Assembly (NCBI GenBank): GCA_000165345.1
Contig: CM000436.1
Coordinates: forward strand, 1,216,001 to 1,280,000
Length of the DNA: 64,000 nucleotides
Direction: 5' to 3'
The translations under genes and the position numbers were made by a program. This document shows, one piece after another, positions 113 through 63,676 of the stretch. How positions within the stretch are numbered: position 1 is the stretch's first letter; every line of letters starts with the position of its first letter. The notes under the pieces were generated by a model. That model saw nothing but the letters and a program-made list of their open reading frames with translations. It was not told the origin of the DNA and searched no databases.

Positions 113-124
113 TTGGCGCCAAAT
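113..124. promoter_or_regulatory. Palindromic E2F/DP-like site TTTGGCGCCAAA
   Basis: Exact 12-bp palindrome matching the TTTSGCGCSAAA E2F consensus. Only GC-rich word in an AT-rich spacer. Confidence 0.4.
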
Positions 125-285
125 CATTCGATACCATATTAATAATGCCGGTATGTAAAAAAAAATTGTAACGGTATCATGTCTCGAGATCTAAAAATTT
201 TACAAAATAAAATAAGCAAAATAAAAATAAAGAATATTAATAAAATACAAAAAAATTAAACTGAATTAAACAAAATATGATTTTT

Positions 286-3200
286 CTATTCATGTCTACC
301 AATTGTATCTGAAATATCTGGAAAATCTTCTTTAGCTTCTTGTTTATGTGTTGTAATATTTTGAGATTTTGTGTTGTCAATTTTACATATCTCTGAATCC
401 TTGTGTGAATTTTCAACACTTGTTTGAGATAAAAACGCTGTTTCATTTCCTTGAAATACCACAGAATTACTTTCAAAAGTTAAATTAGAGTTATTATTAT
501 TGTTTTTTATTGTTGAAGGAGTGTAATTGCCTAATGTAATATCTCCAACTGAAATATTATTCCCATCGTTTATATTCAAATTAGAATTCATATTAGAATT
601 TGAAGTAGAAATAGTGTTAGAATTTGACTGATTGTTTGAAAATCTATAAGTATTGGTTACAGGATTAGAATGGAGTTTGAAATTAAGGTTTTTTTGAAAA
701 AATAAGTTTTCATCCAGTAATATACTATTTTTAGGACTTGCATTGCTACTTTGAGAATAAGATTTAAAGAATTGTAAGGTATTATGAAGTCTTCTTTTTA
801 ATGAAATATACTTTTTAAATAGAATTATCTGAGAAATAAATAAAGTAGTAAAAAGTAATGCAATAATTAAAGTCTGGAAATGATTATAAAAGTAACCAAA
901 TAAATTTAGTATTGATAACCTTATACTTTCAAATAGTTGTGTTAAATAGGTTATTGCTTCACCTGAATAATATTTTCCAAGAAATCTTTCAAGGTAACTT
1001 CCTACTAAATTTAAACTTTGGATTAAATAAATATCTCCCAATTTTAAAAATTTGATCTGATCTGTATCATTTTGTTCATTTTCTGTATTATTCATATTAG
1101 AACCCAATAGTATATCTTGGAGAAATTTTACTGAATTTGAAAGTCTATATATTGAATCATTTATATCATCAAAAGAAGAGTTAAAATCTGCAATAATTGC
1201 TCTTCTTTCAAGCTTCACTGTATCCAATTGTTTCTCTAAAATCTTAACTCTATCTATTAGAGATAATAATGGATGTGATTTTGAATTTGTAAAATAACGA
1301 CCATTTATTGATTCTAAATGATCTTCAAAAATTTCTCTCTTATCAATATACTTATCCTTTTCTTGATTCTTGATTAATAAACTCCTACTTTCTGATCTTT
1401 TAACCTCAAATGCTCCAAGCATATCATCATCTTTTCTTTTTTTATTATTTGTACCTGTATTAAAATTACTAGAATTAAAATACATTATTTGTGGTTTCTG
1501 ATCATTTATTGTTTCATGTATATCTCTTTCAATATCTCTTTTCCAAAGACGATTCTCTACATCTTTAACACTCTCTTCCATCTCTGACATTGAAATAGAA
1601 CTTCTTCTATCACCTCCTCCCATCTCAACCTCTAATCTATTAATTACATTATTTCCAAAAATTTGAATCCTATTTAAATGACAATAATAATGTCCTTCTT
1701 CATAATATGATATTGCTCTCACTCTAATATAACGAACCCAACATGGATTTGAACCATGAACTAAGTTATTCTCCTTAATATGGCCACCAGAAATAATAGA
1801 ATCTTTTCTAATACCAGATACTGATTGATCTCTATTATTTCTATGATCTATTTTATCAGATGCTTTACTTAAGGTATTATCTTCTTTAATATCAGATACT
1901 CTAGATCCTTTTAAACTGGTATGAATATGATCATGATCATCAATATTATAGACTAAATGATCAAAAAGATGATTTCCTTCATCATGTTTTACACATAAAG
2001 TCTTTAAATCAAACATTTCTTTTGGTAATATTTGATTTCTTCTTAATATACCGATAGGTATCCATTGTTTAGTTGGATATATTAAGCTACCAGAAATTTC
2101 AATTTCTCTAAAAGATGATGAAAAATATTCAAGAGAAAATAATGCAATATATTCAAGAAATATATCTTCTTGAAATCCTATAACAAACCACATTGGCTTA
2201 TTACAAGGTACTAATAGATATGAATCTGGATTAGAAGATTGAACAGATTTTGGACGTAATACTCCTTCACTCCAAGATAAAACTTTACTATTAGAAGAAC
2301 TTGATGCATAATCATAATGTAGAGCTGCTAATTGGCTTACATAAGGTGCTCCTTGAATAACTTTTAATTTACTTTTCTCATCCATTTTATCTTCTCTAGA
2401 AACTTTGATTTCAACCTCTTCTTTCTCTTCCAATCTTGTATTCTTATGTTTAATAGTTTCTAAACTACCACATATATGTAAATCAGGATTTGGACTTCCA
2501 TCATTTCTTAACATAATCATACTATCCAAAAATGGTGGAATACATTTATTTTGGGGAGAAATATGGGAAGATCCTAATGTAGAAGATAAATTTGAACCAA
2601 CAGAAGTTCCTATTGTTGTTGAAATACAAGAACTATGTGATCCTGAAGATGTTGGAATCTTAATAATATCTTTATTAAGTATACTTTCTTCAAAATTATT
2701 GGACTGTTCTTTTGAAACCTTAAAAGGTTCATAGTATTCACCAGATATTTTCCTCTTAAAAGATAATTTAAAGGATTTATCACTATTTGAAGTAGTAGAA
2801 TCTGATTCTAACTCCAAACTTTTATATATATTCAACATAGACTTTGAAACAGCTTTAAGCTTAGCAGAAATTTCCAAATTTTGTTTAATTGGATGCCAAG
2901 AACACTTAAATAGAAATTGTGAAGGATGACAAGAGCTAATTTTTATACCAACTTTACGTAAATCGTCTAACATTAGCTCAAAAATTCCTCCAAGAAGATA
3001 TAAAGGAAAATTTTCTTTCCTTCTTAACTTTGTTCTAGCTACTAAACTTGATAAGCTTGTAATATAATTACTAGTAATACCATCAAAGTTTGTTAACTTT
3101 TTATCTTTAATTGAAAAAATGATCTCTCGTATAATGGAATTGAGTTTTGAATCTTTTTTTAATATTAGACATAACTTATTATCTAATTGAGAATTTACTC

Positions 3201-63400: not shown

Positions 63401-63591
63401 GAATGAATAATCAATTTCAACACAAATTAACTTTTAACCAAGAAAATAAACTAATTGTGCAAACTATTGGAATATGGTCATACCTCCCAGTTAATCTTAT
63501 CCCCACTACAACCCTACCTCCTAAGTTCATTGTTGTCCCAATGAATCCGCTAAGTCATTACTTTTATGAACAAATCTCAAATTTTAACTAG
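60496..63591 (+). CDS. RNB-domain 3'-5' exoribonuclease, DIS3L2/Ssd1-like (no PIN domain)
   Basis: RNB motifs [17 protein letters not shown] (catalytic Asp cluster intact), [59 protein letters not shown]. N-terminal cold-shock-like region ([23 protein letters not shown]). 1031 codons uninterrupted. Confidence 0.8.
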   Translation: [1031 protein letters not shown]

Positions 63592-63648
63592 TACTAAATT
63601 GAATCTTCATATATTACAAATCTGTCCGCATTTTACATTTTGCAAAAT

Positions 63649-63676
63649 CCCCGCCTAACCCACTACAGTGGCGCCC
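63649..63676. promoter_or_regulatory. CCCCGCCTAACC plus GTGGCGCCC, about 190-215 bp upstream of gene 63866
   Basis: CCCGCCTAA word (4th copy in the window) and a GGCGCC core at 63670-63675. Confidence 0.4.

What the first reader, a model, noticed from the sequence alone, without database searches (positions are those of the whole stretch)
113..63676. GC-rich E2F/DP-like word family (TTTGGCGCCAAA, TTTTGGCGGGAAA, TTTCCCGCCTAAA) marks nearly every promoter region
GGCGCC occurs 11 times in the window: 116, 6703, 6738, 18825, 20355, 35070, 35094, 55463, 56463, 60375, 63670. Ten copies lie between genes, and the 20355 copy lies in the last 15 codons of the DnaJ-like ORF. For a ~70% A+T sequence a palindromic GC hexamer is expected about once in 64 kb. 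Another 8 spacers carry GGCGGG/CCCGCC in a TTT..AAA context (8487, 41192, 42749/42762, 46001, 50932, 52283, 59198, 63650). At least seven sit in divergent spacers between head-to-head genes, usually 30-350 bp from a start codon. The words match the E2F/DP consensus TTTSSCGC; TTTGGCGCCAAA is the classical palindromic E2F site. An overrepresented E2F-like upstream motif has been described for Cryptosporidium, which, as I recall, encodes E2F/DP whereas Plasmodium does not. The associated genes here are not all replication genes (rRNA processing, trafficking, kinase, RNA decay), so the motif may be a general promoter element in this genome.
Basis: partly seen in the sequence, partly recalled or inferred. 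Interest (0 to 1): 0.75.

Follow-up and report, generated by a model that had tools for sequence, protein, structure and literature searches.

The report
Known E2F-like promoter motif of Cryptosporidium
The window is Cryptosporidium parvum chromosome 8, and the GC-rich words TGGCGCCA and CCCGCC(T/A)AAA that sit upstream of most of its genes are the E2F-like promoter motif already published for this parasite, so the finding is real and well interpreted but not new.

Summary
The counts hold. GGCGCC occurs 11 times (0.40 expected) and GGCGGG/CCCGCC 13 times (1.07 expected). On a gene map built here, 20 of these 24 cores lie in spacers that contain a promoter. None lies in the 8 convergent spacers. 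One is inside tRNA-Ala and three are in coding sequence, which is a chance level. "Nearly every promoter" is too strong: 17 of 24 promoter-bearing spacers carry a core, or 18 with a one-mismatch variant. Five of the six remaining spacers carry the TGCATGCA (ApiAP2-type) word instead. The window is 100% identical to a C. parvum chromosome 8 assembly. The two word classes equal the published C. parvum "E2F-like" motifs 3 and 4 (Oberstaller 2013). That motif is reported as the most abundant upstream motif in the genome and the top motif in sporozoite ATAC-seq peaks (2025 preprint). C. parvum is reported to encode two E2F and two DP genes. New here: the sites persist in the same spacers in C. meleagridis, C. 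canis, C. felis and C. ubiquitum, less so in C. bovis, and rarely in C. andersoni. No paper in the library searched here reports a test of E2F/DP binding. Verdict: already known, low interest.

The parts
112..123 (.). TTTGGCGCCAAA, the only full palindromic 12-mer. It lies 366 bp upstream of the ATG of the minus-strand gene just left of the window.
6702..6709 (.). TGGCGCCA in the spacer upstream of the Fcf1 gene (577 bp from the 7285 ATG; the annotated 5' end may lie further upstream).
6737..6744 (.). TGGCGCCA (TTTTGGCGCCA), second copy 35 bp from the first, same spacer.
8483..8491 (-). CCCGCCTAA (TTTCCCGCCTAAA on the minus strand) in the Fcf1>|hyp385> spacer. Retained in C. canis (L017:197).
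11216..11224 (+). CCCGCCTAA followed by the G-rich run TGTGGGGGG, 473 bp upstream of the minus-strand 113-aa gene. CCCGCC is retained in C. ubiquitum and C. canis.
12233..12240 (.). CGCGCGCG in the divergent AP-sigma<|>PAN2 spacer, 375 bp from the PAN2 ATG. Retained at 363 and 343 bp in C. ubiquitum and C. canis.
18824..18843 (.). TGGCGCCAATATGCGCGCGG, a pair of cores 154-166 bp upstream of the WD40 gene ATG. Paired cores are retained in C. ubiquitum and C. canis.
20336..20361 (.). CCGCCATTCCCCACATGTGGCGCC, a composite of E2F-like, G-box-like (TGTGGGG on the minus strand) and E2F-like words inside the last 15 codons of DnaJ. It is the only conserved block of the convergent WD40>|<DnaJ region in three species.
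35070..35100 (.). GGCGCC and TGGCGCCA 24 bp apart in the divergent hyp309<|>CLU spacer, 157-181 bp from the CLU ATG.
41189..41197 (-). CCCGCCAAA (TTTTGGCGGGAAA on the plus strand) in the 153-bp spacer between two minus-strand genes, 97 bp upstream of the 126-aa gene.
42745..42770 (+). Two tandem copies of GGCGGGCAATTTT in the divergent RagA<|>hyp297 spacer.
45998..46009 (+). TTTCCCGCCTAA in the divergent CBM20<|>IMCp spacer, 366 bp from the CBM20 gene ATG.
50929..50940 (+). TTTCCCGCCTAA 232 bp upstream of the 152-aa gene. CCCGCCT is an invariant run in a four-species spacer alignment.
52283..52291 (+). CCCGCCAAA in the 163-bp spacer, 57 bp upstream of the Sedlin gene ATG. Retained in C. meleagridis, C. 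canis and C. felis.
55462..55469 (.). TGGCGCCA 32 bp upstream of the 174-aa gene ATG. TGGCGCC is an invariant run in a four-species alignment.
56462..56469 (.). TGGCGCCA in the divergent hyp163<|>MAPKK-like spacer (205 and 251 bp from the two ATGs). GGCGCC is present in all six species examined, 190-210 bp from the kinase ATG in five of them.
57957..57964 (+). TGGCGCTA, a one-mismatch variant 35 bp after tRNA-Ala and upstream of the RRM gene. A GGCGC core is present in the first 90 bp downstream of tRNA-Ala in five species.
59199..59207 (+). CCCGCCAAA 69 bp upstream of the EMP24 gene ATG. Retained in C. meleagridis, C. canis and C. felis.
60374..60381 (.). TGGCGCCA (followed by AAA) 116 bp upstream of the RNB exoribonuclease gene ATG. 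Retained in C. meleagridis, C. felis and C. bovis.
63649..63675 (+). CCCCGCCTAACCCACTACAGTGGCGCC, a pair of cores about 200 bp upstream of the next gene (ATG at about 63866). Retained in C. meleagridis and C. canis.

Best explanation
These words are sequence-specific cis-regulatory promoter elements of Cryptosporidium parvum, the published 'E2F-like' motif family.

There are two forms. One is a palindromic TGGCGCCA (occasionally CGCGCGCG). The other is an asymmetric ATT(T/G)CCCGCC(T/A)AAA.

The most likely mechanism is that the parasite's E2F/DP winged-helix heterodimers bind the GC core, each subunit contacting one half, with the T/A flank setting affinity and orientation. Binding would then keep the short promoters of this compact genome open and active. 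One site, or a pair 12-35 bp apart, would serve one gene in a head-to-tail spacer or both genes in a divergent spacer.

Shown here: the enrichment, the restriction to promoter-bearing spacers, the consensus, and conservation across species.

Taken from the literature: the presence of E2F and DP genes, and the presence of the motif in open chromatin.

Inferred: that E2F/DP is the binding factor, and that binding activates transcription.
For: Enrichment and placement
- GGCGCC 11 against 0.40 expected; GGCGGG 13 against 1.07; TGGCGCCA 8 against 0.08; CCCGCCWAA 10 against 0.13; TTTSSCGC 10 against 0.74.
- Intergenic cores 21 against 0.54 expected. Genic cores 3 against 1.10, which is chance.
- None of the 8 convergent spacers carries a core, against 17 of 24 promoter-bearing spacers.
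- De novo k-mer ranking of the spacers puts TGGCGCCA first among non-repetitive 8-mers, with CCCGCCTA also high.

Consensus
- T at -1 in 18 of 20 palindrome half-sites. A at +2 and +3 in 10 of 10 asymmetric sites, and A at -4 in 10 of 10.

Conservation
- Orthologous spacers keep a core in C. meleagridis 7/7, C. canis 6/7, C. felis 6/6, C. bovis 2/5 and C. andersoni 1/7. Shuffles give 0.05-1.0.
- Orthologues of motif-free spacers stay motif-free, with 1 of 26 positive.
- This holds although the C. canis and C. felis loci are 40-47% G+C.
- CCCGCCT and TGGCGCC are among the longest invariant runs in the two spacers that align.
- A second region with C. ubiquitum and C. canis repeats the result.

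Literature
- The identical motifs are published as E2F-like (PMC3734150).
- Two E2F and two DP genes are listed (PMC12246861).
- Protein-binding arrays of C. parvum AP2 domains yielded TGCAT, CACACA and G-box motifs but not this one (PMC4117751).
Against: - No binding experiment exists for any Cryptosporidium E2F or DP, and I could not inspect those proteins.
- Only 9 intergenic matches fit the full TTTSSCGC consensus. The preferred core is GGCGCC with a single conserved flanking T.
- Six of 24 promoter-bearing spacers lack the motif entirely.
- The served genes are functionally diverse rather than cell-cycle genes.
- Pocket proteins (pRb) are reported absent.
- E2F and DP transcripts peak early in asexual growth, whereas the motif lies upstream of clusters peaking at any time.
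- The syntenic C. andersoni region has few sites.
Confidence: 0.8

Rival explanations
1. The words are true promoter elements, but a different sequence-specific factor reads them. Candidates are an untested ApiAP2 domain, a zinc-finger protein or a Myb protein. Under this reading the resemblance to E2F sites is coincidental.
For: No Cryptosporidium E2F/DP binding data exist. The conserved flank is only one T around GGCGCC, and fewer than half of the sites fit TTTSSCGC. The targets are not cell-cycle specific. Oberstaller 2013 itself cautions that the presence of a motif does not prove binding.
Against: The palindromic GC core with T/A flanks and the GGCGGG variant are the two classic E2F site types, and both are published as such. 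The AP2 domains tested on arrays gave other motifs. E2F/DP is reported present in this genus and absent from other apicomplexans.
Confidence: 0.12
2. The words act as a core-promoter or chromatin-organising signal rather than through a regulatory transcription factor. They would be a short GC island that excludes nucleosomes or positions initiation in a 75% A+T spacer.
For: The sites lie in open chromatin and upstream of genes of all kinds and expression times. They are often the only GC-rich word in a spacer of 21-30% G+C.
Against: The exact words are kept in C. canis and C. felis spacers of 36-55% G+C, where a GC island would no longer stand out. Flanking positions are also conserved. The lncRNA study found no clear spacing relative to transcription start sites. 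Distances to the ATG here vary from 32 to 577 bp.
Confidence: 0.06
3. The excess is a compositional or mutational artefact with no function.
For: None beyond the small sample of a single 64-kb window.
Against: No dinucleotide shuffle reaches the observed counts. There are no sites in convergent spacers. Presence and position are conserved across species.
Confidence: 0.01

Closest known systems
C. parvum 'E2F-like' upstream motifs 3 (DTTGSCGCCH) and 4 (TTTGGCGGGAAV) of Oberstaller, Joseph & Kissinger 2013. Oberstaller 2013 says Bankier et al. 2003 first noted the motif on chromosome 6.
   Same: Same organism, same words (TGGCGCCA; GGCGGG with T/A flanks), same upstream location, and the same breadth of target genes. 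This window is simply one more sample of that genome-wide pattern.
   Different: Nothing essential. Added here are a per-spacer census (17-18 of 24), a 3' extension of motif 4 (CCCGCC[T/A]AAA with A at -4), and conservation in six other Cryptosporidium species.
Canonical E2F/DP binding site TTTSSCGC of animals and plants (E2F4-DP2-DNA structure, Zheng et al. 1999; Arabidopsis TTTCCCGCC/TTTGGCGGG), as summarised in PMC3734150.
   Same: A symmetric GC core flanked by T on one side and A on the other. Both the palindromic form and the GGCGGG form are present, and both lie in promoters.
   Different: The preferred core here is GGCGCC rather than CGCGCG. Usually only one flanking T is conserved. 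The targets are not restricted to cell-cycle or replication genes. pRb is reported absent. The motif behaves as a near-general promoter element.
ApiAP2 'AP2_1' motif TGCATGCA of Cryptosporidium and other apicomplexans.
   Same: A second palindromic 8-mer enriched in the same spacers: 8 observed against 0.10 expected in the spacers, and 9 against 0.75 in the whole window. It occupies five of the six promoter spacers that lack any E2F-like word.
   Different: It has a different sequence, and its binding to AP2 domains has been shown on protein-binding arrays.

Membership tests
C. parvum E2F-like upstream motif family (Oberstaller 2013, motifs 3 and 4) | Core [C/G]GCGC[G/C] or GGCGGG | tested here: met
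   11 GGCGCC, 3 overlapping CGCGCG and 13 GGCGGG/CCCGCC.
C. parvum E2F-like upstream motif family (Oberstaller 2013, motifs 3 and 4) | T-rich and A-rich flanks as in DTTGSCGCCH and TTTGGCGGGAAV | tested here: met
   TGGCGCCA in 8 of 10 intergenic palindromes. The asymmetric class has the consensus ATT(T/G)CCCGCC(T/A)AAA.
C. parvum E2F-like upstream motif family (Oberstaller 2013, motifs 3 and 4) | Overrepresented in upstream non-coding DNA of C. parvum | tested here: met
   The window is C. parvum chromosome 8. Intergenic cores number 21 against 0.54 expected. None of 8 convergent spacers carries a core, against 17 of 24 promoter-bearing spacers.
Canonical E2F/DP binding site | Match to the TTTSSCGC consensus | tested here: inconclusive
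   10 matches against 0.74 expected. They cover only 8 of the 22 or so intergenic sites. The remaining sites keep the SSCGC core with fewer flanking T residues.
Canonical E2F/DP binding site | Cognate E2F and DP winged-helix proteins encoded by the same genome | not tested
   No eukaryotic proteome search was possible with these tools. The literature lists cgd1_1560 and cgd6_1430 (E2F) and cgd7_3650 and cgd8_1850 (DP).
Canonical E2F/DP binding site | Physical binding of the E2F/DP heterodimer to the site | not testable with these tools
   The 2025 review says most regulatory components lack functional validation. No paper in the library reports work on the four genes beyond listing them.
Functional cis-regulatory element (phylogenetic footprint criterion) | Retained at the orthologous position in diverged species while the surrounding spacer is not | tested here: met
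   C. meleagridis 7/7, C. canis 6/7 and C. felis 6/6, against 0.2-1.0 in shuffles. Invariant runs CCCGCCT and TGGCGCC. A second region with C. ubiquitum and C. canis gives the same result.

The most novel reading that the evidence does not exclude
E2F-like modules may also be embedded in coding sequence at convergent gene ends, where they would act as promoters of antisense or unannotated transcripts.

The 26-bp block CCGCCATTCCCCACATGTGGCGCC (20336-20361) lies in the last 15 codons of DnaJ. It is the only conserved block of that convergent region in C. parvum, C. ubiquitum and C. canis. Five four-fold synonymous sites within it are identical in all three species, while the neighbouring residues diverge.

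Separately, the motif may have expanded as a general promoter signal in the intestinal Cryptosporidium lineage. The syntenic C. andersoni region has 2 cores against 9 promoter cores in the C. parvum region.
Probability: 0.35. Interest if true: 0.4.

Novelty: already known. Interest (0 to 1): 0.2.

Why it matters
Cryptosporidium is reported to be the only apicomplexan genus that kept E2F/DP. This motif appears to mark most of its promoters, so it is central to how this pathogen's compact genome is transcribed. That point is already made in the literature from 2013 to 2025. What is still missing is proof that E2F/DP binds the motif, and a sequence scan cannot supply that. The cross-species conservation shown here modestly strengthens the case that the sites are functional. 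It also points to specific small promoters that would suit reporter tests, such as the 460-bp divergent spacer at 56213-56672 and the 153-bp and 163-bp spacers.

Tried and rejected
- Chance or base composition: rejected by dinucleotide shuffles of the window and of genic and intergenic parts separately.
- Sites that are not promoter elements: 57912 lies in tRNA-Ala. The TGCATGCA at 57882 also falls within the tRNA-Ala coordinates. 14873 in PAN2 is not conserved in C. ubiquitum.
- 15331 in PAN2: identical in three species, but the peptide NRREK is conserved too, so this stays undecided.
- Unannotated RNA genes under the sites: Rfam at gathering thresholds finds only the two tRNAs.
- A published antisense lncRNA starting at the DnaJ 3' module or inside PAN2: six 16-mers from the window gave no match in the lncRNA FASTA supplement of PMC7840661. 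That file is truncated and line-wrapped, so this is not evidence of absence.
- Alignment of orthologous spacers: MAFFT put the motif in one column in only two of six spacers. I therefore used presence or absence with shuffles instead.
- Earlier literature: Bankier 2003 is not held. Mullapudi 2007 does not name E2F or these words in its text. Priority is therefore cited through Oberstaller 2013.
- Direct search of the C. parvum proteome for E2F/DP: not possible. No eukaryotic genome collection is offered, and a search with a human E2F domain would be swamped by metazoan hits, so I did not spend it.
- Anticorrelation between E2F-like and TGCATG-type words: 5 of 17 spacers with an E2F-like core also carry a TGCATG-type word, against 5 of 7 without one. 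This is suggestive, but the sample is too small.
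Full report
**Origin of the window.** Three proteins encoded in the window are identical to Cryptosporidium parvum Iowa II entries (EAK89621.1, EAK89619.1, EAZ51491.1). 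A 24,266-bp stretch is 100% identical to GCA_031892065.1 CP029787.1, a 1.34-Mb contig. The window is therefore C. parvum chromosome 8, at about 1.205-1.27 Mb. G+C is 29.2% overall, 24.8% in spacers and 30.9% in genes.

**Gene map.** I combined ATG-initiated ORFs with the gene calls attached to identical or near-identical contigs. The AP-sigma gene was corrected by hand to 11334-12084 on the minus strand. The map has 31 protein genes inside the window plus one neighbour on each side, and two tRNAs (Gln 40293-40365, Ala 57849-57922). It gives 32 spacers: 8 convergent and 24 that must contain at least one promoter (9 divergent, 15 head-to-tail).

**Check of the observation.** GGCGCC occurs 11 times against 0.40 expected. 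GGCGGG/CCCGCC occurs 13 times against 1.07 expected. No shuffle reaches either count.
- Of the 24 cores, 20 lie in promoter-bearing spacers.
- One (57912) lies in the tRNA-Ala gene (57849-57922).
- Three lie in coding sequence: 14873 and 15331 in PAN2, and 20355 in the DnaJ tail.
- None lies in a convergent spacer.
- Shuffling genic and intergenic parts separately gives 3 observed against 1.10 expected in genes (p about 0.10) and 21 against 0.54 in spacers.

Using the published core definition adds CGCGCGCG at 12233 and CGCGCG at 18837. With it, 17 of 24 promoter-bearing spacers carry at least one core. The spacer after tRNA-Ala carries a one-mismatch TGGCGCTA, with a GGCGC core in the first 90 bp after the tRNA in five species, which makes 18 of 24. 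The other six spacers have no variant within one mismatch.

Three points are wrong or too strong. "Nearly every promoter" is too strong. "At least seven in divergent spacers" should be six sites in four divergent spacers. One listed class member was missed (11216). The two coding sites and the tRNA site need to be set aside.

**What the words look like.** An unsupervised k-mer ranking of the spacers against a second-order background was run. Apart from AT and A runs, it puts TGGCGCCA first (8 observed, 0.06 expected), then TGCATGCA (8 against 0.10), then CCCGCCTA (5 against 0.09).
- The palindromic class has T at -1 in 18 of 20 half-sites and only a weak T preference further out. The recurrent word is TGGCGCCA, not the 12-mer TTTGGCGCCAAA, which occurs once.
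- The asymmetric class aligns to ATT(T/G)CCCGCC(T/A)AAA, with A at +2 and +3 in 10 of 10 sites and A at -4 in 10 of 10.
- TTTSSCGC matches 10 times against 0.74 expected, 9 of them intergenic.
- The asymmetric word occurs in either orientation relative to the served gene.
- Sites are single or paired 12-35 bp apart, including a tandem duplicate GGCGGGCAATTTT x2 at 42745-42770.
- Distances to the served ATG are 32-577 bp.

**Conservation.** I fetched the syntenic region around the MAPKK-like kinase from five species: C. meleagridis, C. canis, C. felis, C. bovis and C. andersoni. I fetched the region around the WD40 gene from C. ubiquitum and C. canis. Gene order is conserved.

Seven C. parvum spacers in the first region carry a core. 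The number of orthologous spacers that also carry a core is:

| Species | Orthologous spacers with a core |
|---|---|
| C. meleagridis | 7/7 |
| C. canis | 6/7 |
| C. felis | 6/6 |
| C. bovis | 2/5 |
| C. andersoni | 1/7 |

Shuffles of those same spacers give 0.05-1.0. Orthologues of motif-free spacers are positive in only 1 of 26 cases. This holds although the C. canis and C. felis loci are 40-47% G+C.

In the two spacers that MAFFT aligns well, CCCGCCT and TGGCGCC are among the longest invariant runs. The divergent hyp163|kinase spacer keeps GGCGCC in all six species, 190-210 bp from the kinase ATG in five of them.

In the second region, 8486, 11216, the CGCGCGCG at 12233 (375, 363 and 343 bp from the PAN2 ATG) and the 18825 pair are all retained. 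The DnaJ|trehalose-phosphate-synthase divergent spacer lacks a core in all three species. These are footprints of a sequence-specific element, not of composition.

**Mechanism.** The words are the two site types of E2F/DP heterodimers. As summarised in PMC3734150, each subunit contacts one half of a symmetric [C/G]GCGC[G/C] core, T- and A-rich flanks surround it, and TTTCCCGCC/TTTGGCGGG is the abundant plant form.
- The same paper lists DTTGSCGCCH and TTTGGCGGGAAV as C. parvum motifs 3 and 4 and calls them E2F-like. It finds them upstream of clusters peaking at any time point and proposes unusual reliance on E2F.
- PMC4117751 reports the family upstream of 161 of 200 clusters, and reports that AP2-domain arrays do not yield it.
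- A 2025 preprint finds E2F motifs to be the top motif in sporozoite ATAC-seq peaks. [quoted passage not shown] The preprint also finds the motif in the internal spacers of polycistrons.
- A 2021 study finds the motif to be the top motif within 100 bp upstream of lncRNAs.
- The 2025 review names two E2F and two DP genes, and stresses that very few components are experimentally confirmed.
- I found no paper on those genes beyond listings.

I therefore rate the promoter-element role as very likely. I rate E2F/DP as the reader of the motif at about 0.8. The main rival is another sequence-specific factor.

**Promoters without the motif.** Five of the six E2F-free promoter spacers carry TGCATG-type words: 3856, 22600, 31939/31994, 49227/49280/49336 and 53814. 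TGCATGCA is the published ApiAP2 'AP2_1' site. Only 43909-44491 has neither word. E2F-like or TGCATG-type words together cover 22 of the 24 promoter-bearing spacers, or 23 counting the TGGCGCTA variant.

**Comparison and novelty.** It fits the canonical E2F site in core and flanks. It differs in core preference (GGCGCC), in weak outer flanks, in the breadth of its targets, and in the reported absence of pRb. Novelty: already known. I did not find that footprinting in the literature searched.

**The most novel residue.** It combines two E2F-like words with a G-box-like TGTGGGG. It is the only conserved block in the convergent WD40>|<DnaJ region of C. parvum, C. ubiquitum and C. canis. Five four-fold synonymous positions (GCG, CCA, GTG, GGG, GGC) are identical in all three species, while neighbouring residues differ. 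A similar arrangement stands in an ordinary promoter at 63649-63675. This looks like a promoter module overlapping coding sequence, perhaps for an antisense transcript. I could not find such a transcript in the truncated lncRNA supplement.

Noticed in passing
window 20336-20361 (DnaJ CDS, minus strand 20312-22180): CCGCCATTCCCCACATGTGGCGCC combines E2F-like, G-box-like and E2F-like words. It is the only conserved block in the convergent WD40>|<DnaJ region of three species. Five four-fold synonymous sites are identical while flanking residues diverge. It may be a promoter overlapping the last 15 codons, perhaps for an antisense RNA.
   Followed up: partly
window 3856, 22600, 31939, 31994, 46306, 46380, 49227, 49336, 50884, 53814: TGCATGCA and related words (the ApiAP2 'AP2_1' motif) are enriched: 9 against 0.75 expected in the window. 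They occupy five of the six promoter spacers that lack any E2F-like word. Together the two motifs cover 22 of 24 promoter-bearing spacers, or 23 counting the TGGCGCTA variant.
   Followed up: partly
L015 (C. andersoni) 1-21143 versus window about 49500-64000: The syntenic C. andersoni region has only 2 full cores (3590 and 9626), against 9 promoter cores in the C. parvum region. Only degenerate GGCG/GCGC words occur elsewhere. This may be a lineage difference in the use of the motif, but the sample is small.
   Followed up: partly
window 15327-15340 (PAN2 CDS): AATAGGCGGGAAAA, with Arg codons AGG CGG, is nucleotide-identical in C. parvum, C. ubiquitum and C. canis, while neighbouring synonymous sites vary. 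The peptide NRREK is also conserved, so a DNA-level constraint is not proven. The nearby CCCGCCTAA at 14873 is not conserved.
   Followed up: partly
window 50950-50969: GGGGTGTAAAATTACTTGAA starts 12 bp downstream of the CCCGCC core at 50932. Apart from two variable positions (GGGGTG..AAATTACTTGAA) it is invariant in C. parvum, C. meleagridis, C. canis and C. felis. It is a second conserved promoter block that begins with a G-rich run, and its factor is unknown.
   Followed up: no
window 57849-57922 (tRNA-Ala): The tRNA gene contains both GGCGGG (57912) and TGCATGCA (57882). Motif scans that ignore tRNA genes will score false promoter sites here.
   Followed up: yes
window 31499-33075, 45636-47160, 5902-7284, 7936-9021: These spacers of 1.1-1.6 kb have no called gene, which looks long for so compact a genome. 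Gene models also differ between assemblies: the 4294-5901 gene is 535 or 631 aa, and the 216-aa Fcf1 product is absent from the chromosome-scale assemblies. Unannotated exons or non-coding transcripts are possible.
   Followed up: no
window 42745-42770: Exact tandem duplication of the 13-bp unit GGCGGGCAATTTT in the divergent RagA<|>hyp297 spacer. It shows how paired sites can arise.
   Followed up: no
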